A DNA stretch of 64,000 nt from sequence record PP892525.1, one strand, 5' to 3'. Origin of the DNA: Escherichia phage vB_EcoS_I14. The notes below the pieces were generated by a model. That model ran no database searches. It was not told the origin of the DNA and saw only the letters and a program-made list of their open reading frames with translations. How positions within the stretch are numbered: position 1 is the first letter of the stretch; the number at the start of each line of letters is the position of its first letter. A program made the translations under genes and the position numbers. Below are positions 2,308 to 42,213 of the stretch, one piece after another.

Positions 2308-2336
2308 ATTATACATCATTTATGAGCTGTTGCCAA
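2308..2336 (-). promoter_or_regulatory. sigma70-type promoter inside the 3' end of the D10-like helicase gene (minus strand)
   Basis: Minus strand reads TTGGCA-17bp-TATAAT. Confidence 0.55.
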
Positions 2337-3672
2337 ATGCAATTTTAGCTAATTGAACTGCTTTCTCCGGAGTCATGGTAATAGTTTTCCACCCGTTGTT
2401 ACGATATACTGACATACGTCCAGAAGCCTGTCTTAGTCCAGTGCCTCCTTTCATAATTAGATCTACAACAATAGGGTCGAGTTTACCTTCAACAATACGT
2501 TGAACACGACCTGCAAGCTGTTCAATGAGAGACTCATTATTAATAAGACTTCCCATTATTAAACAAGATAGCTCATTAAGGGAGATACCTTCAGAGAAGA
2601 TACTCTGAGCTGCTGCAAGTACACAAGGTCCACCTTTTGCTATATCTTCCTGGATTTTTAATCGGTCATCTAAGTGGGTTGCCCCTATAATTTCATATGT
2701 TGTAACACCACGCTGTGCAAGAGCTTCTAGTACTGTCTGGATTAACTCTGTTCTATCGCTTACAATGAGTACTTTATGCCCCATATTCACGTATAAATGT
2801 GCTAGATTTATAATAGTCTCTCGATATTCAGGATGATTATATACATCGTTAGCACGTAATGCCCATGGTACGTTTTGGTTCCCTGATAACTCAACAGGTA
2901 CGGAGTACCTATGGATTGTAGGTGCAACAGTATTATTAACCGGTGGGCTAAAGATCTTATATCCAAAGAAATCTTTGAACATAACTTGTAGACCATCTTT
3001 TCTTTTTAATGTACCAGATAGTCCAATCTTATAGCGAGCACATGATATTTCTAGGAAGTTAGTGAAAGTTGTAGCCACACAATGGTGAACTTCATCAACT
3101 ATAACAGTACCGAATACTTTAGAAAGATTATTCGCATGTTTATTCACTGTTTGAATATTACTGACCACAATTGGTGGATCAATATTGTATTTTCCAGAAC
3201 CTATGATACCTGGTTCAAACCCAAACCATCTACGAACTTCTGCCGCCCACATTTCACGAATAGATGTATTAGTACAAATTACCAAAGTTTTCTGGCCAAA
3301 TTTATATGCAAGTGCAAGGGCTAGGATAGTTTTACCAAATCCAGGCTTACCATTAATAATACAGGTATCATCGCACTCTTCATATATTGGGAGTTGGTCT
3401 TCTTCACGCAGCGTGAACTTAGGTTTTGGTATATCTACCGGAGCTAATGTACGTTTATCGACTAATTCGTATTTTACTCCTTTAGCATCTAGTAAATCCA
3501 GACGCGTGATAGGAATCCACTTAATCTCTTTGGCAACAACACCACTATTCTTATACATAATAGGGTATTTACTAGTCATTGTCTCTATGTGATAAGTGGT
3601 TTGCTTACTACAATAATCCCAAAGTTCATCATCGGGCTTGAAATAGGCTTTATTAGATATAACAACCTTCAT
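2320..3672 (-). CDS. SF2 DNA helicase (T5 D10-like)
   Basis: 450 aa; Walker A GKPGFGKT and DEVH box (IVDEVHH). Confidence 0.8.
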   Translation of the reverse strand: MKVVISNKAYFKPDDELWDYCSKQTTYHIETMTSKYPIMYKNSGVVAKEIKWIPITRLDLLDAKGVKYELVDKRTLAPVDIPKPKFTLREEDQLPIYEECDDTCIINGKPGFGKTILALALAYKFGQKTLVICTNTSIREMWAAEVRRWFGFEPGIIGSGKYNIDPPIVVSNIQTVNKHANNLSKVFGTVIVDEVHHCVATTFTNFLEISCARYKIGLSGTLKRKDGLQVMFKDFFGYKIFSPPVNNTVAPTIHRYSVPVELSGNQNVPWALRANDVYNHPEYRETIINLAHLYVNMGHKVLIVSDRTELIQTVLEALAQRGVTTYEIIGATHLDDRLKIQEDIAKGGPCVLAAAQSIFSEGISLNELSCLIMGSLINNESLIEQLAGRVQRIVEGKLDPIVVDLIMKGGTGLRQASGRMSVYRNNGWKTITMTPEKAVQLAKIAFGNSS

Positions 3673-7175: not shown

Positions 7176-8066
7176 TTATACCAAATCTTTAAGCGACTCA
7201 GCAACTAAAATTTCAATACGTTTTGCTAACATATCAATTTCATCTTTGTTTAAATCACCCGGATCTTTGCCTTCTGGCAGAAGAAAGTTAGCAACTACAG
7301 GTGTTAAACGCGTTTTTGTACGAATTAGCTTGGCCAACGCTTGTGCAGCTTTGTTACCAGAAGCATCATTATCTAGTAAGATAACAACAACTTTTACACC
7401 AGCAATAATATAAGGACTGAACTTATCTGCAATGTTATCCGAAGTAAACTGATGTGTACCAAAGCAGCAAGAAGCATAGTCTATACCATTATCCTCTAGG
7501 TTAAGCATATCAAAGATACCTTCAACTAGAATAAGAACTGGAGTATTATATCGTACAGGGAAAATCGGTGGTGAAACTTGTTTTGGTTTTACTAAGTATT
7601 TAGGAGGGGCAGAACTGTTTATAGAACGACCCAAAAATAGGATATTGCGTCCAACAGCATCTGTGATTGGGAATACAATTCTGCCTTCCCAGTCTGCTTG
7701 GTGTTGGAAAGCAAAATATTTCTTCAAGGTTTTAGAACTTATACCTCGGAAATCACCTTCGAAAAGGTAAGCAGATTCAGGAATTGCAAGATTTGTAGAT
7801 CCATTCCTAATCTCTGAAATCTTTTTACGTACCTGCGATAGTCTTGGAGACTGTCGGTACTGAGTCTCGTTAAAATAATGGTAAATGCTCGGTATACCTT
7901 TACCGAAGCCACAACTCAAGCAGTGCATAATACCTGTTTCAGGATCAATACGCAAACTTGGGTGTTTATCGTCATGATCTGGATTGAGACAACAGATGAG
8001 GATGTCCCCACCTGTGTCTTTATATTCAATGCCTTTCAGATCAAGTAGTTCTGTTATTCTACTCAT
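7176..8066 (-). CDS. DNA primase (zinc finger + Toprim)
   Basis: 296 aa; CHC2-like zinc motif CLNPDHDDKHPS...HCLSCGFG; Toprim-like VVVILLDNDASGNKAA. Confidence 0.8.
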   Translation of the reverse strand: MSRITELLDLKGIEYKDTGGDILICCLNPDHDDKHPSLRIDPETGIMHCLSCGFGKGIPSIYHYFNETQYRQSPRLSQVRKKISEIRNGSTNLAIPESAYLFEGDFRGISSKTLKKYFAFQHQADWEGRIVFPITDAVGRNILFLGRSINSSAPPKYLVKPKQVSPPIFPVRYNTPVLILVEGIFDMLNLEDNGIDYASCCFGTHQFTSDNIADKFSPYIIAGVKVVVILLDNDASGNKAAQALAKLIRTKTRLTPVVANFLLPEGKDPGDLNKDEIDMLAKRIEILVAESLKDLV

Positions 8067-33088: not shown

Positions 33089-33727
33089 ATGACTACTCGT
33101 ATCTCTAAAACTCGCGCTCTGGCAACTATCAAATCTCTGGAAGCTAAAATCCGTAAAGCTACTGAACAACAGCTTCTGATCGCTGTTGGTGAAGGTAAGG
33201 ATAAAAACCAGGTTGTAGTTGGCGCTGCAATCGAAGTAGATGCCCTGTCTACTCGTATTAAAACTGATTTCCAATCTCTGCTGGATATGATGTCTCAGCG
33301 TGATCGTATTAAATCTGCTCTGATTAAGAGCAATGCAGAAACAATCGTTGAGATTGGTTCTCGTAAGATGACTGTTGCGGAAGCAATTGAAGCTAAGCGT
33401 TCTATGGAGCTTAAAGCTCAGCTGCTGGCTAACATGCGTAAGCAGTTCCATGCCGCTACGGTTAAGTTTAATACGCAGAAAGCACAGTTTGATGCTAAAT
33501 ATGAGCGTTTGCAGGATAGCATGGCTACCCGCGATAAGAAAACTTCCGAAGATGAAGTTAAAATGCAGCTCAATCTGCTGGAACTCAAGAATACTCCATT
33601 CTTGATTGATCCGCTGGAACTGGAGAAGCTGATTAAGCAGCATGACGAGGAATACCAGGACTTTGCAACAAATGTTGACTTTGTTCTATCCGAGTCTAAC
33701 GCCTCTACCTTCATTGAAGTAGAGTAA
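33089..33727 (+). CDS. hypothetical protein, predicted coiled coil
   Basis: 212 aa ORF. Confidence 0.5.
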   Translation: MTTRISKTRALATIKSLEAKIRKATEQQLLIAVGEGKDKNQVVVGAAIEVDALSTRIKTDFQSLLDMMSQRDRIKSALIKSNAETIVEIGSRKMTVAEAIEAKRSMELKAQLLANMRKQFHAATVKFNTQKAQFDAKYERLQDSMATRDKKTSEDEVKMQLNLLELKNTPFLIDPLELEKLIKQHDEEYQDFATNVDFVLSESNASTFIEVE

Positions 33728-34110
33728 TAATTTAAAAGCTAGTAAATCGGTAGACGAAAGCCCAAGCATCTTACCTCGCAGCAGCGGTTGAAATACGAGG
33801 TTAAATAAGACCGCTGACCATACTATAAAGTATAATCTATTGGAGATTATGTTTATTACACCAGCCTTTTAAGCTGACACGTAAGAACAAAGCGTCGTTG
33901 ATATTACCGACACAACTTCAAAGATCAACATTTAAGTATGAAAGCTGAAAAGTTTAAAGAACTCAAACTTCTAAACTTCTAAAGCTAAAAGATGCAAAGT
34001 ATTCGTTGATGATTCAAACCCTAGATCAAAGGTACATGGCTCATAAGATATGGCCTGTGGCGCCTCTAGGCTGTTTATCGGTTTACTAGTTTCACAATTT
34101 AAAAATGTAT

Positions 34111-34139
34111 TTGCTAATTTACTAAGTTATCTGTATAAT
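34111..34139 (+). promoter_or_regulatory. sigma70-type early promoter
   Basis: TTGCTA-17bp-TATAAT, then TTAAATTGATGAAACGAGG. Confidence 0.7.
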
Positions 34140-34169
34140 ATATTTTTAAATTGATGAAACGAGGCTATT

Positions 34170-34487
34170 ATGACTTTTCATATTTTGATTGATGATGTGC
34201 GTAATCTTCACGGAATGGACATTATCATTCGAACCCCAGAAGCCGCTGTAGAGTTTCTGAATAAAACTGATACCACCGGCCATTTCGTTTATATGGATAA
34301 TGACTTGGCTGTAGATGGTATGGAAGGTTATCAAATTCTTCGTTTACTCTTAGAATTTGGGCAGAGACCAAAGAAAGTGGTACTAGTAACCTCGAACCCA
34401 GTAGCTAAGCAAAATATGCGTAATGATTTGCTTGACTTAGGGTATAAAGAAAATCCCAATCGTGTTGAATATGATTGGCAGGAGTAA
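34170..34487 (+). CDS. receiver (REC/CheY-like) domain protein, stand-alone
   Basis: 105 aa; ILIDD, FVYMDNDL, VVLVTSN and PVAK fit the DD-D-T-K receiver pattern. Confidence 0.45.
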   Translation: MTFHILIDDVRNLHGMDIIIRTPEAAVEFLNKTDTTGHFVYMDNDLAVDGMEGYQILRLLLEFGQRPKKVVLVTSNPVAKQNMRNDLLDLGYKENPNRVEYDWQE

Positions 34488-34492
34488 AAAGA

Positions 34493-34942
34493 ATGAAGGC
34501 AGCTTTGCTTTTAGTAGCTGCCCTTACCTTCAGCTTTAGTAGTCAGGCATCGCACGATGCAAAAGAAATAGATTGCATTGCTAAAAATATCTATTTCGAG
34601 AGTCGTGGTGAGGGCATAAAGGGAATGACGGCAATTGCACATGTTACTAAAAACCGTGTAAACTCCGGTAAATTCCCAGATTCCTACTGTAAAGTAGTAT
34701 ATCAGTCTAACCAGTTCTCTTGGGTATCTAAGAGACCAAAAGTTGATAAAACTGATGAGGCTTGGCAAACCGCTAAGAATTTAGCTAGAGTGATATACTA
34801 CGTTGATTTACCACAAGATCCTACACATGGAGCACTATACTTCCATAGTGGTAAAGATAAACCTTACTGGACAAAGAAATTTAAGAAAACAACTAAGATT
34901 AAGGGACATACGTTTTATAAACCTGTTGTCACTAAAACTTAA
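34493..34942 (+). CDS. secreted cell-wall hydrolase (SleB/Hydrolase_2-like)
   Basis: Signal peptide MKAALLLVAALTFSFSSQA; motifs IYFESRGE, AIAHVTKNRV, CKVVYQSNQFSW; the track ORF starts at 34475. Confidence 0.65.
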   Translation: MKAALLLVAALTFSFSSQASHDAKEIDCIAKNIYFESRGEGIKGMTAIAHVTKNRVNSGKFPDSYCKVVYQSNQFSWVSKRPKVDKTDEAWQTAKNLARVIYYVDLPQDPTHGALYFHSGKDKPYWTKKFKKTTKIKGHTFYKPVVTKT

Positions 34943-34950
34943 AAATTTAC

Positions 34951-34979
34951 TTGCTTAAATACTTAAATTTCTGTATAAT
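34951..34979 (+). promoter_or_regulatory. sigma70-type early promoter
   Basis: TTGCTT-17bp-TATAAT, then CATAAATTAATGAGAGG. Confidence 0.7.
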
Positions 34980-35010
34980 ACTTCCATAAATTAATGAGAG
35001 GAAGCGAAAT

Positions 35011-35181
35011 ATGAAATCAGTTGTAATTATTGGTGTTAACACTCGCGGTATTCGTACTACGAAAACTGTTAAAACTTCTAACGTTGCTGAGATCACTACG
35101 AACCCTAAAAAGTTTGATTTCGCCAAAGTCTCAGCAGTTATGACAGAACAATCTTTTAACCAAGCATTGGGGATGAAATAA
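35011..35181 (+). CDS. hypothetical small protein
   Basis: 56 codons from ATG 35011; not in the ORF track. Confidence 0.35.
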   Translation: MKSVVIIGVNTRGIRTTKTVKTSNVAEITTNPKKFDFAKVSAVMTEQSFNQALGMK

Positions 35182-35615
35182 TGGGTACGAATATGATTCG
35201 TGTGCTGCGAGAATTAATTGAAAAAGCTCGCAAACACGGTGATACTGTGTCAGTCAAGCACCTTAGTACGATTTTAGGTGACTTACAACGAATTGATAAA
35301 GATTGCGTATCTAGACTAGAGTTTACTAACTGGATTAAATCACAGTTCAAAGCAATTGAGAGTACAATGACTTCTGCTGCAAAAGCAAATATCGAGTATA
35401 CTCCAGATGCTGAATATCTCGACTTGTTAGCAGGTCTAGAGTATGAATATGCTCTAGAGCAGTTAACTGAAGTTCAGATTCGTGAGTATTTTGCAGAACT
35501 GGTTAAATTAAACCCAGGTATTACCAAAGCTCTATTAATGAAAACTATTAAGGCAGAATTTCCTGGACGTTATGACGGTAAAACAACTGCTTTGATTGCT
35601 AGTGAATTTTTCTAA
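35181..35615 (+). CDS. hypothetical protein
   Basis: 144 aa ORF. Confidence 0.5.
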   Translation: MGTNMIRVLRELIEKARKHGDTVSVKHLSTILGDLQRIDKDCVSRLEFTNWIKSQFKAIESTMTSAAKANIEYTPDAEYLDLLAGLEYEYALEQLTEVQIREYFAELVKLNPGITKALLMKTIKAEFPGRYDGKTTALIASEFF

Positions 35616-35623
35616 AAATTCAC

Positions 35624-35652
35624 TTGCTAAATGCTTATAAATTCTGTATAAT
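35624..35652 (+). promoter_or_regulatory. sigma70-type promoter at the start of the tRNA/ncRNA region
   Basis: TTGCTA-17bp-TATAAT; no ORF follows for about 750 bp. Confidence 0.7.
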
Positions 35653-35718
35653 ATATTCATAAATTAGAGAGTAATTTCTATCTAATTTATAAATAGTGGG
35701 GTGTGGAAATCACTTATG

Positions 35719-35790
35719 TAGTAACACTGCCGTCCTAGTATAATTGGTATTATCAAGCCGTAACTGGTGGAAGATGTAGGTTCGAATCCT
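35719..35790 (+). tRNA. tRNA-like element, anticodon arm not foldable
   Basis: T-arm GTAGG-TTCGAAT-CCTAC and acceptor GCCGTCC/GGTCGGT with one mismatch; no convincing D or anticodon stem; no CCA. Confidence 0.3.
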
Positions 35791-36293
35791 ACGGTCGGTA
35801 AGAACTGGATAACTGATGCTTTTAACGTAAAAGCTTCCGAGGTTAGTTGCGCACTGCCTAAACCACGCGGTAGTTGGTTCCAGACTAACCAACCAGTCTG
35901 CTGAATAGTTTTATTACGATTTAACTATGTCCAGGCTAAAGAAGAACTTTAGAAGGTATTTCTAGGATAGTGAAGTTCTTTCTCCATATCGGAGTAGTTT
36001 TTCAAGCTATCCACAAAGTGGGAAATGCTGACATGAGAGATGTCACTAATGGTGCACAATAGCACAGGTAATTCGCGATAACTCCTGTTGAGTAGCAGCA
36101 AAAGGCGGGAAGTCATGACCCCAAGCCTAACCGAGTCCTCAATATACCGCAGGACATAACCACTAAGTCACCCTGACTTAAACTGGAAAATAATAGACGT
36201 TACTGTATTTTGTCTTGAAATACTTAATGAGTGAGACTTATGATTCTCCCGGTATCGTCTGTATTTTTAAGAGTTTTTACGAGAGTTCTTAAA

Positions 36294-36368
36294 AATACTT
36301 AAACGGGGTGTAGTCTAATGGAGAGGCAGGAGTCTTCTAAATTCCTTTATGCAGGTTCGAATCCTGTC
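36294..36368 (+). tRNA. tRNA-Arg(TCT), tentative
   Basis: Acceptor CGGGGTG/CACCTCG; anticodon stem GGAGT/ATTCC, loop CTTCTAA; T-arm GCAGG-TTCGAAT-CCTGT; CCA encoded; short D-arm. Confidence 0.55.
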
Positions 36369-36412
36369 ACCTCGGCCAATTTTATTAACTGTAACTAAAA
36401 CAAAGGAAACAT

Positions 36413-37360
36413 ATGTTTAATACTAAAAATATGAAAGAATTGACTTCTGAGCAGAAAGTAATTCGTACTATTAAACGTTGGGGTATTGGTGCTATAGTTG
36501 GTTTAGCAGGTTTAATCCTAGCTTTTAATTCGTATACCATTGTTTCTGATGGTACGGTTAAAACCCAAACATTCCTGGGTAAAGTAGACCCTAATCCAGT
36601 ATTACCTGGTTTCCATCTTGTAAACCCGTTTGCATCTTTCGATACTTTTAGTACAAAAGATATTGCTGTAAAATTAGATAAACTTCAGGTTCCTAGCCAG
36701 GATAAGTTTAAATCCACTGTTGACCTGACTGTTATGTTGCAGTTTGATGGTTCTAAGGCACCAATTAACCGTATTAACGCAGGTACTCAGGATCAAGCGT
36801 TAGACAAGTATGTAACTGAAAAATTACTGTCTACTATTCGTGAGTTTGGTAAGTCTGTACCTAAAGCACAAGATTTGTTTGATGCTAAAATTCAGGCTCA
36901 ATTGCAAACCGCAATTCAACAAGAAGTTGAAGAGTATGCACGCCCATATGGTTACACAGTTAAGCAGGTATTCCTTCAGGATATTACTCTACCACCAGTA
37001 ATCATGGAACAGGTACAGAATACCAAAGTTCGTGAAGAGCAAGTTAATGCTGCGAAAGCTGAATTGGCTCGTGTTGAACAGGAAGCACAGCAAAAAGTTA
37101 AACAAGCAGAAGCAGATCGTGAAGCTCGCAACAACCAAGCTATTGCTAATGAACGTGACGCAGATGCTAAACTGTACGCAGCTAAGAAAGAAGCTGAAGC
37201 TAACGCCGCACTGCAACGTACCATTACTCCTGAGATGATTCGTTGGAAACAACTGGAAGTTGAGATGATTCGTGCTCAGAAATATCAAGGTGGTGTACCG
37301 CAGACTGTGGTTGGCACTGGCTATGATGGCCAAATGATTATGGATATGCGTAATAAATAA
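36413..37360 (+). CDS. SPFH/band-7 (prohibitin/HflKC-like) membrane protein
   Basis: 315 aa; N-terminal TM segment, SPFH-like core, Ala/Glu/Gln-rich coiled coil. Confidence 0.7.
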   Translation: MFNTKNMKELTSEQKVIRTIKRWGIGAIVGLAGLILAFNSYTIVSDGTVKTQTFLGKVDPNPVLPGFHLVNPFASFDTFSTKDIAVKLDKLQVPSQDKFKSTVDLTVMLQFDGSKAPINRINAGTQDQALDKYVTEKLLSTIREFGKSVPKAQDLFDAKIQAQLQTAIQQEVEEYARPYGYTVKQVFLQDITLPPVIMEQVQNTKVREEQVNAAKAELARVEQEAQQKVKQAEADREARNNQAIANERDADAKLYAAKKEAEANAALQRTITPEMIRWKQLEVEMIRAQKYQGGVPQTVVGTGYDGQMIMDMRNK

Positions 37361-37383
37361 TACCCGCACGTAACATCTGAAGT

Positions 37384-37419
37384 GAGCCCTGCGTTCCCTG
37401 GAGAGCGCAGGGCTTTTCT
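37384..37419 (+). terminator. intrinsic terminator after the SPFH gene
   Basis: GAGCCCTGCG...CGCAGGGCT hairpin followed by TTTT. Confidence 0.7.
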
Positions 37420-37456
37420 ATATAATGTATTTGTAAATCTAACTAGGAGATCAAAT

Positions 37457-37975
37457 ATGAATGTTGATGAGCTAATACAGCACCTCTTATCTAGGGGATT
37501 TGATACAGATAAATATCATTGCTGGTTAAGTCCGGAAGGATGGCTAACAGTCCCGTTGTATGACTTCTCTGGGATGTTGAGAGGCTATCAGACTTATAAT
37601 CCTTCTGCTCCCAAAAGGCAGGGTAAGTGCCCATTTGAAGCTAAATATTTTACCCATTCTACTACACAGTGTGTATGGGGGCTAGAAACTCTCAATGGAG
37701 ATGAAAAAGTAGTATTGATTGCTGAATCTGTATTTAAGGCAGTTGCGTTACATAACGCTGGTTATCCCGCCCTAGCAATGTTGGGTTCTTCTCCGGGAAA
37801 AGCATTATTAAAGCAACTGAAATTACTACCTTTTAAATTGATAGCTATTGGTGACAATGATCCCGATGGTGAAAAATTTGCTAGAAAATTAAACGGCTTT
37901 GTTTCTCCCGTAGATGTGGATGAGATGTCTACCGAAAACTTGAAAAATTTTCTTGCTATGAAGCTAAATTTCTAA
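37457..37975 (+). CDS. hypothetical protein with Toprim-like motifs
   Basis: ATG 37457 after AGGAGA; VVLIAESVF and IAIGDNDPDGEKFA; the track ORF starts at 37382 inside the terminator. Confidence 0.45.
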   Translation: MNVDELIQHLLSRGFDTDKYHCWLSPEGWLTVPLYDFSGMLRGYQTYNPSAPKRQGKCPFEAKYFTHSTTQCVWGLETLNGDEKVVLIAESVFKAVALHNAGYPALAMLGSSPGKALLKQLKLLPFKLIAIGDNDPDGEKFARKLNGFVSPVDVDEMSTENLKNFLAMKLNF

Positions 37976-37981
37976 TATAAT
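37953..37981 (+). promoter_or_regulatory. sigma70-type promoter upstream of tRNA-Ser
   Basis: TTGCTA-17bp-TATAAT; -35 lies in the 3' end of CDS 37457-37975. Confidence 0.65.
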
Positions 37982-37994
37982 ATATCTTATAAAT

Positions 37995-38085
37995 TCGGAA
38001 GAATAGCATAACGGTATTGCAGCAGATTGCTAATCTGTCGGTTTGAAATATAGCCTTGTGGGTTCGATTCCCACTTCTTCCGCCA
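37995..38085 (+). tRNA. tRNA-Ser(GCT), type II
   Basis: Acceptor GGAAGAA/TTCTTCC; anticodon loop TTGCTAA; long variable arm; T-loop GTTCGATTC; CCA encoded. Confidence 0.7.
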
Positions 38086-38091
38086 GATTTT

Positions 38092-38169
38092 GGTTCTCAA
38101 GCTCATATGGTATGAGCACCCGGCTCATAACCGGAAGGTACGTAGGTTCGAATCCTCGGGGAGCCACCA
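38092..38169 (+). tRNA. tRNA with CAT anticodon (Met or Ile2), tentative
   Basis: Acceptor GGTTCTC/GGGAGCC; D-stem GCTC/GAGC; anticodon loop CTCATAA; T-stem has two mismatches; CCA encoded. Confidence 0.5.
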
Positions 38170-38385
38170 ATTAAATAGAGGTCACAAATGGATCTATATA
38201 TATAGTTTATGTTGTGTTTATCCAAGATAGAGAATACCCGGATGAATATAAAAAAGGATATAGGTTAGCCAGAGCTACTTCTGAAGCCCAAGCTATGGAT
38301 AAAGTGGCAGATTATATGATTACAGTAGAAAACGTACACTATATCGACTACCTTGAAGCCTCAAAAGTAATTGACTAAACTACAT

Positions 38386-38462
38386 GGGGGTGTAATCGAA
38401 TTGGCATAGGTACTGGACTTAAAATTCAGGTTTTGTGGGTTCGAATCCCACCACCCCTACCA
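38386..38462 (+). tRNA. tRNA, anticodon tentatively TAA (Leu)
   Basis: Acceptor GGGGGTG/CACCCCT; T-arm GTGGG-TTCGAAT-CCCAC; CCA encoded; D-arm unclear. Confidence 0.5.
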
Positions 38463-38477
38463 AATTAAGGAAATAAG

Positions 38478-38645
38478 ATGTATAGACATCCACCTCCGCC
38501 AACACGTCGTTCTAGAGAAGTTATCCTCATGGAATTAACTAAAAACTTCAAGGCAACTCTTGAAGATAGAGATCTAGGCACGGATGAAGACATTGATTTT
38601 ATTTGTAGACTACTAAAGATGAAACTGGAGAAACAACATGGCTAA
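38478..38645 (+). CDS. hypothetical small protein
   Basis: 55 codons from ATG 38478; not in the ORF track. Confidence 0.3.
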   Translation: MYRHPPPPTRRSREVILMELTKNFKATLEDRDLGTDEDIDFICRLLKMKLEKQHG

Positions 38646-38844
38646 TCCTGAAATTACCGCACAACGTTTCATGCTTAAAGGCATGATTGCTGAAGCAGGT
38701 ATGACTCAAGAGGTTGCAGACTTTCATAAGCAAATTCTTGATATTATAACTCTAGCTAAAGAGACTGGAGAAAAAGAGCACGCAGCAGCAATTATGGCTA
38801 TATCTCTTATTAGTCTAGACTTGGCTGAAGAATCTGGAGTTTAG
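38638..38844 (+). CDS. hypothetical protein
   Basis: 68 aa ORF. Confidence 0.4.
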   Translation: MANPEITAQRFMLKGMIAEAGMTQEVADFHKQILDIITLAKETGEKEHAAAIMAISLISLDLAEESGV

Positions 38845-38874
38845 CTCCTCCAAACAGAATTTTTAAAAATGTAC

Positions 38875-38904
38875 TTGCCTTTTGCTTTAAATTTCTGATA
38901 TAAT
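38875..38904 (+). promoter_or_regulatory. sigma70-type early promoter
   Basis: TTGCCT-18bp-TATAAT, then TATAAATTGATGAAGGAG. Confidence 0.65.
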
Positions 38905-38934
38905 AGTTATATAAATTGATGAAGGAGTTAACGA

Positions 38935-39210
38935 ATGCAAAATCGTGTTGTAGCAGCTGGTATTGAAAGTGCAATCTGTAAATCCTGGGAAGGCTGGGAA
39001 GGTGAGATTGAATGGCTTTATTTCTACGATGTAGAACTTCTTCCAGAAGTTAAAGCTAAATGTGTTGAAGCTGGCATGGCTCCAGATGCAAAAGCTGATA
39101 TTGATATTTCAATGTCTGAACTTAAAGGTCGTGTAATTACTGTTGGTGATGAGGGCGAAGAAGTTTTCGAACTTCCGTTCTCCTTAACTGTCACTCCTAA
39201 GTTCGACTAA
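38935..39210 (+). CDS. hypothetical protein
   Basis: 91 aa ORF. Confidence 0.5.
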   Translation: MQNRVVAAGIESAICKSWEGWEGEIEWLYFYDVELLPEVKAKCVEAGMAPDAKADIDISMSELKGRVITVGDEGEEVFELPFSLTVTPKFD

Positions 39211-39246
39211 CTAATACAGCACTGAGCAAGTTCTTTAAAATTTGAC

Positions 39247-39275
39247 TTGCTCAGTGCCTTAAAACTTGGTATAAT
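39247..39275 (+). promoter_or_regulatory. sigma70-type promoter upstream of tRNA-Tyr, overlapped by a 12-bp inverted repeat
   Basis: TTGCTC-17bp-TATAAT; perfect inverted repeat GCACTGAGCAAG/CTTGCTCAGTGC (39220-39257) spans the -35. Confidence 0.6.
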
Positions 39276-39338
39276 AGTTATCTAATTTGGAAACATATTT
39301 AAAAGTGTTTAAACTAATATTTGAATACTTTTAAATAT

Positions 39339-39426
39339 GGGCGTTTATTCCGTAAGTGGTAGCGGAGGGGATTGTAAATCCCTGGTCATTGCGACTCGAG
39401 TGGTTCGACTCCATTAACGCCCACCA
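39339..39426 (+). tRNA. tRNA-Tyr(GTA), type II
   Basis: Acceptor GGGCGTT/AACGCCC; anticodon stem GGGGA/TCCCT, loop TTGTAAA; long variable arm; CCA encoded. Confidence 0.7.
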
Positions 39427-39443
39427 AATTAAAGGTAAAGGAT

Positions 39444-39935
39444 ATGTATATTGATAGGATAATTCAAGAAGCTGCAAATAGGGGTATTATACAGTTAGGT
39501 TCACCCGCTGATATAAACAAAGATCTAATATTAGAGAGCCTCACATTTGGTACAGCTAACTTTGGTCGCGATAGTAATCGTCGGTATAGTTTGAAGTTAT
39601 CTGCTCTATCTTTTATCAAGTATAACAAAAGTATTGGAGAAAAATCCAGCTGTGGTTTTATTTATGCAATAACTAACCCAGCTTGGGATAACTATGTAAA
39701 AATTGGTATGTCTTCTGATCCTAAAACAAGATTAGGAAATTACCAGACTTACTCTCCTTTACGTGATTATAAGTTAATACATTGGTCATTTTGGTTTAAT
39801 GCTAGAGAAGCTGAGAAAATGCTTCATAATAGCTTTCCCGAACGGCTTAATGAATGGGTAGTATTAGATAGAAGTGTAGATGAAATACTTTCTGAGTTTA
39901 ATAATCTATCCAATAAACAATTTAAGTCCTGTTAG
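39444..39935 (+). CDS. T5orf172/GIY-YIG-like domain protein (homing-endonuclease-like)
   Basis: 163 aa; motif GFIYAITNPAWDNYVKIGMSSDPKTRLGNYQT; lies between tRNA genes. Confidence 0.55.
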   Translation: MYIDRIIQEAANRGIIQLGSPADINKDLILESLTFGTANFGRDSNRRYSLKLSALSFIKYNKSIGEKSSCGFIYAITNPAWDNYVKIGMSSDPKTRLGNYQTYSPLRDYKLIHWSFWFNAREAEKMLHNSFPERLNEWVVLDRSVDEILSEFNNLSNKQFKSC

Positions 39936-40002
39936 ACAAACTGGTAAAGTCACTACCCTTTCAAGGTAGGGTTTGTGGGTTCGATCCCCGCACAGGACGC
40001 CA
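39926..40002 (+). tRNA. tRNA-Glu(TTC)
   Basis: Acceptor GTCCTGT/ACAGGAC; anticodon stem CTACC/GGTAG, loop CTTTCAA; CCA encoded; 5' end overlaps the stop of CDS 39444-39935. Confidence 0.65.
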
Positions 40003-40010
40003 ATTTCTGC

Positions 40011-40087
40011 ATTCCTAGAGTGTTACTGGACAGCATGTCGGTCTCCAAAACCGTACGGTCTAGGTTCGAGTCCTAGTAGGTTTGCCA
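40011..40087 (+). tRNA. tRNA-Trp(CCA), tentative
   Basis: Anticodon loop CTCCAAA; T-arm CTAGG-TTCGAGT-CCTAG; CCA encoded; acceptor has two U-U mismatches. Confidence 0.45.
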
Positions 40088-40093
40088 AAATTT

Positions 40094-40168
40094 GCACCTT
40101 TAGCTGAGATGGATTAGCGCTTGCCTGAAGAGCTTGAGAGGTTCGTTCGATACGAACAGGGTGCACCA
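40094..40168 (+). tRNA. tRNA-Phe(GAA), tentative
   Basis: Acceptor GCACCTT/AGGGTGC; D-stem GCTG/TAGC; anticodon loop CTGAAGA with weak stem; T-arm GTTCG-TTCGATA-CGAAC; CCA encoded. Confidence 0.55.
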
Positions 40169-40185
40169 AATTGAAGGAGCTGCTG

Positions 40186-40458
40186 ATGCATCCTGAAAAC
40201 TTCTTTATTTACTGCGCTGATAAGTCGCTAAAACGTAGAATTAACAAAGTCTATCATTATCGTGCTAGTCAACAGCCTTATGTATATGCTTTTGACGGTG
40301 ATCACATTCCACTAGAACAATTATCTTGTGATTACATGATATTGAAGAACTTTGACGAGACGAAGATCTCAAGCGTTCACAATCGACAGAATCCATTAAC
40401 GTGGAAATATAAGAAGAAAAAGAAAGGAATCAAATTCTTAAAAAATGTAGTTGCTTAG
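40186..40458 (+). CDS. hypothetical protein
   Basis: ATG 40186 after AAGGAG; the track ORF begins at TTG 40171. Confidence 0.4.
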   Translation: MHPENFFIYCADKSLKRRINKVYHYRASQQPYVYAFDGDHIPLEQLSCDYMILKNFDETKISSVHNRQNPLTWKYKKKKKGIKFLKNVVA

Positions 40459-40479
40459 TTTCCAAAAGTTCTGTATAAT
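40451..40479 (+). promoter_or_regulatory. sigma70-type early promoter
   Basis: TTGCTT-17bp-TATAAT. Confidence 0.7.
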
Positions 40480-40508
40480 AATTACATAAATTGAACTGGA
40501 GAAGCAAC

Positions 40509-40733
40509 ATGACAGAACAAGAATTGAATGAACGTAAGCTGGTAATGCTTCGCTTACTAAATATTTTCTCTGGTATGGACGGTGGAATTGACTTTGTTCA
40601 TCTACGTTCTTTCGTAGAAGAAGCCGAAGGCGAATCTATCACTAAAATCCTTAAACACATGGGATTACTTTTAGATGCTGCTAATGTGGCTACTGAATAT
40701 AAACTAGAAGATCTACCGGAGCGTGTTAAATGA
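40509..40733 (+). CDS. hypothetical protein
   Basis: ATG 40509 after GGAGAAG, downstream of promoter 40451-40479. Confidence 0.45.
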   Translation: MTEQELNERKLVMLRLLNIFSGMDGGIDFVHLRSFVEEAEGESITKILKHMGLLLDAANVATEYKLEDLPERVK

Positions 40734-40921
40734 AACGATTAGTTAGATTTAAGTGTTGTGGTTCTGAACATATTTTCACACATCTTCGTGAATTTAAAAT
40801 GTGTGATTGTGGTAAATCAGGCTATGACTCAGGAGATGGGTTCTACGCCCGTACTCTAGGGAACTTCAATGATCTAGAATTTGAAGATCTCGAAAAGCAA
40901 GATAAATCGACCGTTGGCTGA
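40730..40921 (+). CDS. hypothetical Cys-rich small protein
   Basis: 63 aa; CCGSEH...CDCG; 3' end overlaps tRNA-Cys. Confidence 0.4.
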   Translation: MKRLVRFKCCGSEHIFTHLREFKMCDCGKSGYDSGDGFYARTLGNFNDLEFEDLEKQDKSTVG

Positions 40922-40983
40922 ATGGCTTAGGCGAAGGATTGCAAATCCTTTTTATGTGAGTTCAAATCTCATGCGGTCGTCCA
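40908..40983 (+). tRNA. tRNA-Cys(GCA)
   Basis: Acceptor CGACCGT/GCGGTCG; anticodon stem AAGGA/TCCTT, loop TTGCAAA; T-loop TTCAAAT; CCA encoded; overlaps the 3' end of CDS 40730-40921. Confidence 0.7.
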
Positions 40984-40990
40984 AATTTTA

Positions 40991-41073
40991 GGGTCGTTAG
41001 CCAAGCGGTTTGGCGGCGGATTGTTAATCCGTGTCGAAAGACAACGTAGGTTCGAATCCTACACGGCCCGCCA
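40991..41073 (+). tRNA. tRNA-Asn(GTT) with extended variable region, tentative
   Basis: Acceptor GGGTCGT/ACGGCCC; D-stem GCCA/TGGC; anticodon stem GCGGA/TCCGT, loop TTGTTAA; CCA encoded. Confidence 0.6.
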
Positions 41074-41175
41074 AATTCTGTGTAGAGTTAAGTAAACCGG
41101 TAGCCAACCAGCTATCATTGCTGACATCGAATTCAGCCACAGATACCATTTTCATTAATAACTGAGGAAACAAGC

Positions 41176-41361
41176 ATGTCCAAGAATGTAATTGCACAGT
41201 TAGAAGTTCATCGTGATAACACAGCTAATAACATTAAGTGCCGACAAAAAGATATTGAAGCTCGAAAGGCTGATCTTTTAATGAGTATTCGAGAGCTTAA
41301 TGTACGAAAAGAGTTTCTTAAAGAACTTAATGCAGCTATTGAAAAACTCAAAGCTGAGTAA
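41176..41361 (+). CDS. hypothetical protein
   Basis: 61 aa ORF. Confidence 0.4.
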   Translation: MSKNVIAQLEVHRDNTANNIKCRQKDIEARKADLLMSIRELNVRKEFLKELNAAIEKLKAE

Positions 41362-41370
41362 ATGAATTAT

Positions 41371-41447
41371 GCGACCGGGGCTGGCTTGGTAATGGTACTC
41401 CCCTGTCACGGGAGGGAATGTGGGTTCAAATCCCATCGGTCGCGCCA
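41371..41447 (+). tRNA. tRNA-Asp(GTC)
   Basis: Perfect acceptor GCGACCG/CGGTCGC; anticodon stem CTCCC/GGGAG, loop CTGTCAC; T-loop TTCAAAT; CCA encoded. Confidence 0.75.
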
Positions 41448-41473
41448 AACTAAACTAGCACGAGAAATATGAT

Positions 41474-41821
41474 ATGGTTAATGCTAAAGAAGAATTGTTA
41501 CTTGCCCTAAAGAATACTAATTCTGAAGTTAAGTGTATTAAGATAGAATTCGGTTATTATGGGGACAAAGAAGTTTGGGTATTACCCATAGGTTATACAG
41601 AAAAAGATATTGAAGATTTTCTAAATAATCTAGACTTTAAATATGATTCTGGTTTCGGTGGACAATTGCTTTATGGTAACGTATGGTTTACTGATGGAAC
41701 TTGGTTAGAACGTGGTGAATACGACGGTTCTGAATGGTGGGAATATAAGGCTACACCAGCAATCCCAGAAGAATGCCGAACAATTAATGGTGAAGTAGAT
41801 CGTACTTTACTATTAAATTAA
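41474..41821 (+). CDS. hypothetical protein
   Basis: 115 aa ORF. Confidence 0.5.
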   Translation: MVNAKEELLLALKNTNSEVKCIKIEFGYYGDKEVWVLPIGYTEKDIEDFLNNLDFKYDSGFGGQLLYGNVWFTDGTWLERGEYDGSEWWEYKATPAIPEECRTINGEVDRTLLLN

Positions 41822-42213
41822 CAAAATTTCAGTGCAGAACACGGAGCTAGCAATTCGGAAGTGCTGACTCATGATAAGCTGCCTATGTACTTGCGAAGCG
41901 GTCGTGTCCAAGACTCGGACTCTTGCACTGAAAACAATCAAACATTCTAGCGTGGTTGATGGGGAAACCAGCTTGGCTAGGGCAGAAGCTCGTTCGATTC
42001 GAGTGAAAGAATGGTTCTCGTAAGTCCGCACAAGTGATAGCAGGTTCGAGTCCTGTCTAGAATGACACTATAAAGTTTACTTATTATGTAGGTTCCGATA
42101 GATCGGCGGGTCTATTCTGGCATTTAAGAGAAGTCTCGCAAACTTTTTTGTCAGCCGTGGGGTTGGTAGCCTCCAGGTGGCCTACACAATAAGTAAATTT
42201 ATTAAAAATTCAT

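What the first reader, a model, noticed from the sequence alone, without database searches (positions are those of the whole stretch)
36413..37975. SPFH/band-7 membrane protein followed by a small Toprim-motif protein
A prohibitin/HflKC-like protein (TM plus SPFH plus coiled coil) is unusual in a phage and could modulate host membrane proteases such as FtsH or membrane microdomains. The downstream ORF has Glu and DxD motifs reminiscent of a Toprim fold without an obvious partner domain.
Basis: partly seen in the sequence, partly recalled or inferred. Interest (0 to 1): 0.45.

Follow-up and report, generated by a model that had tools for sequence, protein, structure and literature searches.

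The report
Two unlinked T5 accessory genes
The window is a T5-like phage, and the two genes are its already-annotated, lab-dispensable accessory genes: a membrane-anchored SPFH protein and a small DnaG-type primase core lacking its zinc finger; they are neighbours by accident rather than a functional pair.

Summary
ORF A (36413-37360, 315 aa) is a single-pass SPFH/Band-7 protein (Pfam 2e-17). Its model aligns full-length with the cage-forming erlin, prohibitin and HflK/C proteins.

Both genes were annotated in phage T5 long ago (T5p078, band 7; T5p074, primase-like/toprim). Both lie inside the segment deleted in the viable T5st0 mutant, yet both are under strong purifying selection (dN/dS 0.015 and 0.10).

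They are not a unit:
- A terminator and a promoter lie between them.
- 18 of 25 T5-like loci have a 2-kb insert between them.
- Each occurs without the other in other phage families.

SPFH is not rare in phages (722 records). A full 296-aa primase sits elsewhere in the window.

One lead remains open: the mini-primase recurs inside tRNA arrays in several distant lineages.

The parts
36304..36378 (+). tRNA-Arg(tct), immediately upstream of the SPFH gene. In T5 it is co-transcribed with it from promoter P16-17 (context feature).
   Evidence: ARAGORN, Rfam 52.3 bits, T5 annotation.
36413..37360 (+). SPFH/Band-7 membrane protein, 315 aa, orthologue of T5p078.
   Evidence: Pfam Band_7 2e-17. PHROG 200 1.3e-86. 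99% identical to T5p078. Foldseek full-length hits to erlin1/2, prohibitin, HflK/C, stomatin and QmcA, E 2e-14 to 1e-9. dN/dS 0.015.
36479..36535 (+). Single N-terminal transmembrane anchor (about residues 23-41). The basic N-terminus predicts N-in topology with the C-terminal SPFH domain in the periplasm.
   Evidence: Hydropathy maximum 1.81 at residues 25-43 and no second hydrophobic segment. K+R mean 4.0 on the N-side vs 1.6 on the C-side, N>C in 46 of 52 homologues. AF2 helix 12-39. The orientation is an inference from the positive-inside rule.
36566..37087 (+). SPFH (Band_7) domain, residues 52-225.
   Evidence: Pfam envelope. AF2 beta/alpha core at residues 41-192.
36995..37282 (+). Long helical (coiled-coil type) region, residues 195-290, then a low-confidence C-terminal tail. 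This matches the CC1/CC2 wall and cap segment of cage-forming SPFH proteins.
   Evidence: AF2 helices 195-270 and 273-290. About 300-column Foldseek alignments to full-length erlin, prohibitin and HflK/C chains.
37384..37415 (+). Intrinsic-terminator-like hairpin (13 pairs, then a T-run), matching T5 'ter1'. It contains the sequence of the T5 major single-strand interruption, CCCTGGAGA|GCGC, at 37404|37405.
   Evidence: Terminator scan. Alignment to the T5 region after T5p078. T5 annotation of ter1 and the nick.
37421..37449 (+). TATAAT -10-like element (37421-37426), which aligns with T5 sequence inside annotated promoter P15a, and the AGGAG ribosome-binding site (37445-37449) of the primase-like gene.
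   Evidence: Promoter scan, sequence, alignment to the T5 region before T5p074, T5 promoter annotation.
37457..37975 (+). Free-standing DnaG/T7-type primase RNA-polymerase domain, 172 aa, orthologue of T5p074. It has no zinc-binding domain and no helicase-binding domain.
37724..37861 (+). Toprim catalytic motifs: Glu90 (37724-37726, DnaG motif IV 'E-S/G-x-F') and Asp133-x-Asp135-x-x-Gly138 (37853-37870, motif V). Asp153 and Asp155 (motif VI) follow at 37913-37921.
   Evidence: E90, F93, D135, G138 and D153 are at least 90% conserved in 119 family members. D133, D135 and E90 are invariant in the closer 15-sequence set. They align to DnaG EGYMD / DGDxAG.
37997..38085 (+). tRNA-Ser(gct), 22 nt after the stop of the primase-like gene (context feature).
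   Evidence: ARAGORN, Rfam 60.5 bits.

Best explanation
These are two independent, separately transcribed accessory genes in the tRNA-gene island of a T5-like (Tequintavirus) phage. They are not a two-gene system.

Gene A is a type-II (N-in) single-pass inner-membrane protein. Its SPFH domain, long coiled-coil helices and C-terminal tail face the periplasm. By analogy with HflK/C, prohibitins and erlins, it most likely assembles into a homo-oligomeric cage on the periplasmic face of the host inner membrane and encloses or regulates a membrane client. FtsH is the most obvious candidate. A role in envelope or lysis-timing control is the main alternative.

Gene B is a complete, catalytically intact DnaG/T7-type primase RNA-polymerase domain (N-subdomain plus Toprim) that has no zinc-binding or helicase-binding domain. 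It most likely performs Mg2+-dependent nucleotidyl transfer on a single-stranded nucleic acid, as an accessory enzyme alongside the phage's full 296-aa primase. It would depend on a partner for template recognition.

Shown here: the folds, motifs, transcription signals, distribution, purifying selection, and location inside the T5st0 deletion segment. Inferred: oligomerisation, membrane orientation, the client of A, and the substrate and activity of B.
For: Identity:
- The window is T5-like: 24 tRNAs and 94-96% nucleotide identity to Tequintavirus genomes.
- A is 99% identical to T5p078 and B corresponds to T5p074, annotated 'band 7' and 'DNA primase-like, toprim'.

Independence:
- A terminator-like hairpin, a -10 element and an RBS lie between the genes.
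- T5 annotates terminator ter1 after T5p078 and promoter P15a before T5p074, with three opposite-strand genes in between.
- The window junction equals the two T5 flanks fused.
- Spacing is about 2 kb in 18 of 25 T5-like loci and about 100 nt in only 4.
- The SPFH gene occurs without B in T4-like phages.
- B occurs without SPFH in Providencia PR1, Salmonella phage Arash and a 42-kb Salmonella phage.

Gene A:
- Band_7 at 2e-17.
- Full-length Foldseek matches to cage-forming SPFH proteins.
- A single TM helix with positive-inside bias in 46 of 52 homologues.

Gene B:
- pLDDT 95.4.
- R13, G43, Y47, Y64, G75, E90, D135 and D153 are at least 90% conserved across 119 family members, and D133 is invariant in the closer 15-sequence set. 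'HL..RGF' aligns with DnaG's 'YL..RGL'.
- A full primase with Zn ribbon, DNAG_N and Toprim lies at 7176-8066 (-), next to a DnaB-like helicase.
- Homologues sit in replication modules elsewhere: after a helicase loader and SSB in 8 loci, and overlapping an SNF2 helicase gene in the 42-kb phage.

Accessory but functional:
- GenBank AY734508 is exactly the 8,208-nt segment between the T5st0 recombination sites and contains both genes.
- T5st0 is a viable laboratory strain.
- dN/dS is 0.015 for A and 0.099 for B.
Against: - No experiment or publication on either gene was found.
- The SPFH model is of only moderate confidence (pLDDT 72, pTM 0.40). Oligomerisation and orientation are inferred.
- SPFH identity to HflK/C is below 20%. 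Nothing links it to FtsH specifically.
- For B, a primase core without a zinc-binding domain is expected, from published work on DnaG and T7 gp4 (my knowledge, not tested here), to be poor at template-directed priming.
- In both T5-like phages and the 42-kb phage, another primase is already present. Fusion partners in the family include no replicative helicase.
- The recurrent tRNA-array location is not explained by a replication role.
Confidence: 0.75

Rival explanations
1. The mini-primase is an RNA- or tRNA-directed enzyme. It would use the primase-type active site on phage tRNA precursors or damaged tRNAs (processing, repair or 3'-end chemistry) and would be maintained as part of the tRNA island.
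For: - The gene is embedded in tRNA arrays, on the same strand and often within 20-350 nt of the flanking tRNAs. This holds in T5-like phages, the distant Demerecviridae member PR1, the 181-kb Salmonella phage Arash and related contigs, and uncultured phage contigs of roughly 8-140 kb, several with an upstream NAMPT gene. In total, 18 of 54 non-T5 IMG/VR loci show it.
- In Vibrio phage F100 it adjoins a tRNA nucleotidyltransferase gene. Vibrio F94 and Shewanella phage 1/40 show the same pair of feature names under the match.
- An RNA-repair-associated cREC_REC domain protein lies 3 kb upstream in the window.
- Toprim domains can be RNases: RNase M5, and PARIS and Retron-Eco2 (PMC12405507).
Against: - The fold is the two-subdomain primase core, not the Toprim-only RNase M5 type.
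- Many homologues lie in replication modules with no tRNAs nearby: 36 of 54 loci have none within 6 kb.
- From general knowledge, phage tRNA islands are hotspots for unrelated accessory genes, so co-location is weak evidence.
- The tRNA-embedded loci collapse into a few lineages, so the count of independent events is small.
Confidence: 0.15
2. One or both genes are counter-defence factors. The mini-primase would act as a decoy or antagonist of a host immune sensor or effector. The SPFH cage would shield the inner membrane from membrane-targeting abortive-infection effectors or from superinfecting phages.
For: - Both genes are dispensable in the laboratory yet strongly conserved, which is typical of host-range or anti-defence genes.
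- They lie in the T5 tRNA island. T5-encoded tRNAs are reported to neutralise tRNA-targeting defences (Burman et al. 2024 and Azam et al. 2023, as cited in PMC12405507).
- Family neighbours and fusions include NAMPT, cytidylyltransferase-like, Mom and Arr-like domains.
- There is a weak PADLOC hit of B to a DRT 'RTasDnaG-like' Toprim (9.3e-5).
- The SPFH gene is 82% identical between unrelated phage families, implying recent horizontal spread.
Against: - No defence or anti-defence family match for the SPFH protein. The PADLOC hit for B covers only about 60 residues of the shared Toprim motif.
- The intact catalytic residues in B argue for an enzyme rather than a passive decoy.
- No experimental link exists.
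Confidence: 0.1
3. The two genes form a functional SPFH-Toprim module. This is the first reader's implicit reading: a membrane scaffold that recruits the Toprim enzyme.
For: They are adjacent on the same strand in the window and in a minority of T5-like genomes. Both are retained together in most Tequintavirus and Epseptimavirus genomes.
Against: - A terminator plus promoter lies between them.
- A 2-kb insert of opposite-strand genes separates them in 18 of 25 loci.
- The SPFH domain is predicted to be periplasmic, while B has no signal peptide or TM segment.
- Each gene is found alone in other phage families.
Confidence: 0.03

Closest known systems
Phage T5 T5p078 ('putative membrane protease', band 7 / COG0330) and PHROG 200
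   Same: 99% amino-acid identity, the same length (315 aa), and the same position after tRNA-Arg. PHROG 200 match at 1.3e-86.
   Different: Nothing material. The PHROG label 'lipoprotein' is not supported for this protein, which has no Cys or lipobox in its anchor; only 5 of 52 homologues have a Cys there. 'Protease' in the T5 label refers to the COG name, not to a protease domain.
E. coli HflK/HflC (FtsH-regulating periplasmic SPFH cage); mitochondrial prohibitins; ER erlins
   Same: N-terminal single TM anchor, SPFH domain, long CC helices and a C-terminal tail. About 300-column structural alignments (E 2e-14 to 6e-10). The predicted orientation away from the cytoplasm matches these three (the orientations of the reference proteins are from established knowledge).
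   Different: 16-19% identity. It is a single gene rather than a K/C or 1/2 pair. No evidence of FtsH binding. It is phage-encoded and dispensable in the laboratory.
E. coli QmcA-YbbJ (SPFH-NfeD pair)
   Same: Best sequence match among solved structures (phmmer 1.7e-6, profile 4.5e-7).
   Different: No NfeD-type partner gene next to it: the neighbours are tRNA-Arg and the primase-like gene. QmcA's SPFH domain is cytoplasmic (established knowledge), whereas this one is predicted to be periplasmic.
Phage T5 T5p074 ('DNA primase-like protein') and PHROG 849
   Same: Orthologue: 172 aa, aligned start region and the same downstream tRNA-Ser. Window protein B is 92-100% identical to the T5-like homologues listed with this 172-aa arrangement. 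PHROG 849 match at 2.6e-59 over profile positions 143-337 of 435.
   Different: In T5 proper it lies 2 kb from the SPFH gene rather than 96 nt.
Bacterial DnaG and phage T7 gp4 primase RNA-polymerase domains (also the Twinkle N-domain and T4 gp61)
   Different: No CHC2 zinc ribbon (three non-conserved Cys and no Pfam hit). No helical C-subdomain or DnaB-binding domain. Not fused to a helicase. Only 22% identity to the phage's own 296-aa primase (E=0.2). The GGR motif of DnaG is replaced by G-x-Q-x-Y.
Mycoplasma MG010-type DnaG paralogues (TIGR00646, 'DNA primase-like protein')
   Same: A short DnaG-like protein; the weak match spans residues 14-172. That MG010 lacks a zinc finger is from my own knowledge.
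   Different: 21.6 bits against a cutoff of 260, so it is not a member. The function of MG010 is itself unknown (my knowledge).
RNase M5 and small Toprim proteins
   Different: RNase M5 lacks the primase N-subdomain and has a C-terminal RNA-binding domain instead. The overall match is much weaker than to primases.

Membership tests
SPFH / Band-7 superfamily | Band_7 (PF01145) domain above the curated threshold | tested here: met
   64.2 bits vs cutoff 23.6, E=2e-17, residues 52-225. All 120 listed homologues but one carry PF01145.
SPFH / Band-7 superfamily | Membrane anchor N-terminal to the SPFH domain | tested here: met
   A single hydrophobic helix at about residues 23-41 (KD 1.81), conserved in 52 of 52 homologues.
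SPFH / Band-7 superfamily | C-terminal coiled-coil helices and tail, as in cage-forming members | tested here: met
   AF2 helices 195-270 and 273-290. Full-length Foldseek alignments to erlin, prohibitin, HflK/C, stomatin and QmcA. Model confidence is moderate (pLDDT 72).
SPFH / Band-7 superfamily | Assembly into a large oligomeric ring or cage | not testable with these tools
   Needs native MS, cryo-EM or a multimer prediction.
HflK/HflC-type FtsH regulators | Two paralogous subunits (K and C) encoded together | tested here: not met
   Only one SPFH gene at the locus. The neighbours are tRNA-Arg and the primase-like gene. No second Band_7 ORF was seen among the window ORFs examined.
HflK/HflC-type FtsH regulators | Periplasm-facing SPFH domain | tested here: inconclusive
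   The positive-inside rule favours N-in/C-out in 46 of 52 homologues. This is a prediction only.
HflK/HflC-type FtsH regulators | Binding and modulation of FtsH | not testable with these tools
   Requires co-purification or proteolysis assays.
Stomatin/QmcA-NfeD pairs | Adjacent NfeD-family partner gene | tested here: not met
   The flanking features are tRNA-Arg upstream and the primase-like gene downstream. The T4-like homologues also lack an annotated NfeD neighbour. No window-wide NfeD HMM scan was run.
DnaG-type (bacterial/T7-type) primase | Toprim domain with a conserved Glu and DxD | tested here: met
   Toprim_2 at 22.6-22.9 bits vs 22.1. E90 and D135 conserved in at least 90% of the family, D133 invariant in the closer 15-sequence set. 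They align to DnaG EGYMD / DGDxAG.
DnaG-type (bacterial/T7-type) primase | N-terminal subdomain of the RNA-polymerase domain preceding the Toprim | tested here: met
DnaG-type (bacterial/T7-type) primase | CHC2-type zinc-binding domain for template recognition | tested here: not met
   No Zn_ribbon_DnaG hit. The protein starts 12 residues before the 'RGF' helix, and its three Cys (22, 58, 72) are not conserved. The phage's 296-aa primase does have the Zn ribbon.
DnaG-type (bacterial/T7-type) primase | Helicase-interaction domain or fusion to a helicase | tested here: not met
   The protein ends about 17 residues after motif VI. No helicase gene is adjacent in the window.
DnaG-type (bacterial/T7-type) primase | Template-directed oligoribonucleotide synthesis | not testable with these tools
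   Needs a biochemical primase assay.
RNase M5-type Toprim ribonuclease | Toprim domain plus a C-terminal RNA/uL18-binding domain, with no primase N-subdomain | tested here: not met

The most novel reading that the evidence does not exclude
The free-standing, zinc-finger-less DnaG-type core is a distinct enzyme family. It has at least 424 cluster representatives, most of 165-190 aa. Its conserved role in large phages would be tied to tRNA islands, for example acting on phage tRNA precursors or damaged tRNAs, or countering Toprim- or tRNA-based host immunity, rather than priming DNA replication. This would explain why it recurs between tRNA genes in T5-like, PR1-like, Arash-like and uncultured phages. 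It would also explain its adjacency to a CCA-adding enzyme gene in marine phages, and its co-existence with a complete primase.
Probability: 0.15. Interest if true: 0.65.

Novelty: already known. Interest (0 to 1): 0.25.

Why it matters
As a finding, it mostly re-derives the existing GenBank annotation of phage T5 (T5p078 band-7, T5p074 primase-like). That makes it ordinary.

Two things still give it modest value. First, both proteins are very strongly conserved yet dispensable in the laboratory, and neither has an assigned function in one of the classic model phages. They are therefore good candidates for host-interaction or counter-defence roles that could be tested by simple deletions. Second, the comparative work here shows that the small primase-like protein is a complete primase catalytic core that recurs as a stand-alone family. 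It is often a second primase-like gene, and it often sits inside tRNA arrays. If that location reflects function, it would add a new activity to the DnaG fold.

Tried and rejected
1. The GTG 37382 start (197 aa) is rejected. Its first 25 codons translate a terminator hairpin and the nick site. ATG 37457 has an AGGAG and matches the annotated orthologues.

2. B as a recent paralogue of the phage's replicative primase is rejected: 22% identity, E=0.2.

3. The longer 288-aa family members (L035-L038) supplying the missing zinc finger is rejected. Their N-terminal extension has no Cys cluster and no Pfam hit. Only rare members carry an unrelated DUF3268 zinc finger.

4. The mini-primase as the sole primase of small phages, and therefore demonstrably a working primase, is rejected for the 42-kb Salmonella phage. 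That phage also encodes a 766-aa 'replicative helicase-primase'.

5. A shared helicase partner is rejected. The SNF2 helicase coupled to the homologue in the 42-kb phage shows no similarity to the window's SF2 helicase at 2320-3672 (E=0.27).

6. Recent block transfer of the tRNA island together with the gene is not supported. The flanking tRNA-Ser and tRNA-Tyr of the window and of Arash-like phages are only moderately similar.

7. The 'lipoprotein' label for the SPFH protein is not supported.

8. Known defence or anti-defence membership: no PADLOC hit for A and only a Toprim-motif hit for B. NCBIfam gave nothing for A and a far-subthreshold MG010 hit for B.

9. Literature searches for functional work on either T5 gene, or on phage SPFH proteins and FtsH, found only statements that the function is poorly understood.

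10. The search for related loci with the 119-sequence alignment failed because no stretch was conserved enough. It worked with 15 sequences.
Full report
**What the window is.** The window carries 24 tRNA genes between 36304 and 46942 on the + strand. It also carries a replication module on the - strand: DNA polymerase, a DnaB-like helicase, a 296-aa primase, a split NAD-dependent ligase and an origin-binding protein. The 1.9 kb around the finding is 94-96.5% identical to Tequintavirus genomes such as IME178, SA001 and AKFV33. This is the tRNA-gene island of a T5-like phage.

**Checking the observation.** ORF A (36413-37360, +, 315 aa) and an ORF ending at 37975 both exist.
- A matches Pfam Band_7 at 2e-17, far above threshold, and PHROG 200 at 1.3e-86.
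- The downstream ORF matches Toprim_2 just above its gathering score and Toprim just below it. It matches PHROG 849 'DNA primase' at 2.6e-59.
- The mechanical 197-aa ORF from GTG 37382 is not the gene. Positions 37384-37415 form a 13-bp terminator-like hairpin followed by a T-run. A TATAAT follows at 37421-37426, then AGGAG at 37445-37449 and ATG at 37457.
- Related phages and T5 annotate the 172-aa protein from this ATG.

**Both genes are already annotated.**
- Protein A is 99% identical to T5p078, deposited as 'putative membrane protease; contains band 7 family protein (PF01145) ... stomatin/prohibitin homologs (COG0330)'.
- Protein B corresponds to T5p074, 'DNA primase-like protein; contains toprim domain (PF01751) and DNA primase (bacterial type) (COG0358)'.
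- tblastn finds A in 722 and B in 478 of 50,697 phage records.

An SPFH protein in a phage is therefore not unusual. I found no paper that assigns a function to either gene. Papers that mention phage SPFH proteins call their role poorly understood or speculate about HflC and lambda CII.

**The two genes are not a unit.**
- In T5 itself, T5p078 is followed by a mapped major single-strand interruption and a bidirectional terminator (ter1). Three opposite-strand genes (T5p075-077) follow, and then promoter P15a drives T5p074.
- Aligning the window junction with T5 shows that the window equals the two T5 flanks joined at a short TCTGTAT repeat.
- Among 25 T5-like IMG/VR loci with both genes, the spacing is about 2.0 kb in 18, about 100 nt in 4 and 215-289 nt in 3. 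The direct adjacency seen in the window is therefore the minority arrangement.
- Outside T5-like phages the genes separate completely. The SPFH gene is 80-83% identical in T4-like Slopekvirus and Pseudotevenvirus, where it lies in the tk/rI region with no Toprim gene nearby.
- The primase-like gene occurs without any SPFH neighbour in Providencia phage PR1, Salmonella phage Arash and a 42-kb Salmonella phage.

**Both are accessory but functional.** GenBank AY734508 is 8,208 nt long. That is exactly the interval between the two annotated st0 recombination repeats (33684-41891 of wild-type T5), and it contains both T5p074 and T5p078. T5st0 is the viable heat-stable deletion mutant used routinely in laboratories. 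Both genes are therefore dispensable for growth on laboratory E. coli. This is an inference from the record's annotation. Against 23-25 T5-like loci the median dN/dS is 0.015 for A and 0.099 for B, so both are maintained by strong purifying selection.

**The SPFH protein.**
- The AlphaFold model has moderate confidence (pLDDT 72). It shows a helix at 12-39, a beta/alpha SPFH core at 41-192, a very long helix at 195-270, a second helix at 273-290 and a poorly defined tail.
- Foldseek aligns about 300 columns to full-length erlin1/2, prohibitin 1/2, HflK/C, stomatin, QmcA and flotillin chains, with E from 2e-14 to 1e-7. These are the cage-forming SPFH proteins.
- By sequence, QmcA and the prohibitins are the closest solved structures.
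- There is one hydrophobic segment. Across 52 homologues the 15 residues before it carry on average 4.0 K+R against 1.6 after it, with N>C in 46 of 52. The positive-inside rule therefore predicts an N-in anchor with the SPFH domain in the periplasm, as in HflK/C.
- The 'lipoprotein' label of PHROG 200 is not supported, because there is no lipobox.
- No second SPFH subunit and no NfeD partner is adjacent.

The most likely mechanism is a homo-oligomeric periplasm-facing cage that encloses or regulates an inner-membrane client. FtsH is the obvious candidate by analogy. Its neighbourhood next to the lysis-inhibition gene in T4-like phages makes envelope or lysis-timing control the alternative. None of this is tested.

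**The primase-like protein.**
- An exhaustive HMMER search finds 424 cluster representatives at E<=0.001, most of them free-standing proteins of 165-190 aa.
- The family conserves L10, R13, G43, Y47, Y64, G75, E90, F93, D135, G138 and D153 in at least 90% of 119 sequences, and D133 in the closer 15-sequence set. E-G/S-x-F, D-x-D-x-x-G and P-x-D correspond to DnaG motifs IV, V and VI. 'HL..RGF' aligns with DnaG's 'YL..RGL' helix.
- The family profile hits only DnaG catalytic cores in the PDB.
- The AlphaFold model is very confident (pLDDT 95.4, pTM 0.91).

The protein is therefore a complete T7-size primase RNA-polymerase domain, not an orphan Toprim. It lacks the zinc-binding domain (no Zn-ribbon hit, three non-conserved Cys) and any helicase-binding region.

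It is a second primase-like gene in this phage. The 296-aa protein at 7176-8066 (-) has the Zn ribbon, DNAG_N and Toprim domains and sits beside the DnaB-like helicase. The two proteins are only 22% identical.

**Context of the mini-primase family.**
- In 8 IMG/VR loci it follows a helicase loader and an SSB.
- In the 42-kb Salmonella phage its start overlaps the stop of an SNF2-type helicase gene, but that phage also encodes a separate 766-aa helicase-primase.
- In 18 of 54 non-T5 loci it lies inside or beside a tRNA array on the same strand. Examples are tRNA-Ser|gene|tRNA-Tyr in Arash-like phages and tRNA-Arg|gene|tRNA-Asp in contigs with an upstream NAMPT gene. The same holds in the distant T5 relative PR1.
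- In Vibrio phage F100 it adjoins a tRNA nucleotidyltransferase gene. Vibrio F94 and Shewanella 1/40 show the same pair of feature names under the match.
- Fusion partners in longer members are heterogeneous: cytidylyltransferase-like, GNAT/Arr, Mom, HAD, ParB_N and DUF3268. None is a replicative helicase.

My best reading is an accessory nucleotidyl-transfer enzyme with a primase active site that needs a partner for template recognition. A tRNA/RNA-directed or counter-defence role is the more novel alternative and cannot be excluded. The tRNA-embedded loci fall into only a few lineages. From general knowledge, tRNA islands also collect unrelated accessory genes, so the association is suggestive and no more.

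**Verdict.** The domain calls are correct but re-derive existing annotation. The 'unusual in a phage' and 'pair' framings are wrong. Novelty is 'already known', and interest is low to moderate (0.25). The only part worth following up is the recurrent placement of a zinc-finger-less primase core inside phage tRNA arrays.

Noticed in passing
window 37384-37415 (nick at 37404|37405): The terminator-like hairpin between the two genes contains the exact sequence CCCTGGAGA|GCGCAGGG, where T5 annotates a 'major DNA single-chain interruption'. One of the T5 major nick sites is therefore conserved in this phage and lies inside the hairpin that aligns with T5's ter1 region.
   Followed up: partly
window 38092-38166 (+) and 35729-35800 (+): Rfam's tRNA model finds two tRNA-like elements that ARAGORN did not report. 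One scores 40.3 bits directly after tRNA-Ser, the slot where T5 and relatives annotate tRNA-Ile2/Met(cat). The other scores 35.5 bits, in the region that by position upstream of tRNA-Arg corresponds to where T5 annotates 'RNAX'.
   Followed up: partly
window 34170-34487 (+) and 34475-34942 (+): A 105-aa protein matches the cyclic-phosphate processing receiver domain (cREC_REC, PF20274, 3.8e-15), a domain associated with RNA-repair systems. It is followed by a 155-aa ORF whose counterpart in phage SIA3lw is annotated 'cell wall hydrolase' and whose N-terminus looks like a signal peptide. Both lie just upstream of the tRNA island.
   Followed up: partly
window 36413-37360 vs T4-like phages (L087, L091): The SPFH protein is 80-83% identical over residues 39-313 between T5-like siphoviruses and T4-like Slopekvirus/Pseudotevenvirus myoviruses, while the N-terminal anchor differs. 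This implies recent exchange between unrelated phage families. In the T4-like phages it sits in the tk/lysis-inhibition (rI-like) region.
   Followed up: partly
L002 2218-3825 (T5 T5p075-077) vs window 37416-37420: T5 and 18 of 25 T5-like loci carry a ~2-kb cassette of three opposite-strand hypothetical genes inserted at a TCTGTAT repeat between the terminator and the promoter of the primase-like gene. The window lacks it.
   Followed up: partly
L005 4001-4496 (Dickeya phage JA33) and Erwinia jumbo phages: In the Dickeya and Erwinia jumbo phages the mini-primase homologue is matched in two pieces, and only the first ~89 codons are annotated. It may be frameshifted, split or interrupted there.
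   Followed up: no
L004 3595-5429 (Vibrio phage F100); also Vibrio F94 and Shewanella 1/40: In F100 the mini-primase homologue is annotated as overlapping the 3' end of a tRNA nucleotidyltransferase (CCA-adding enzyme) gene. Vibrio F94 and Shewanella phage 1/40 show the same pair of feature names under the match.
   Followed up: partly
window 40730-40921 (+): A 63-aa Cys-rich ORF (CC..H...C.C) within the tRNA island weakly matches DUF7695 (21.3 bits, below the cutoff of 25). It may be a small zinc-ribbon protein. No link to the primase-like gene was established.
   Followed up: no
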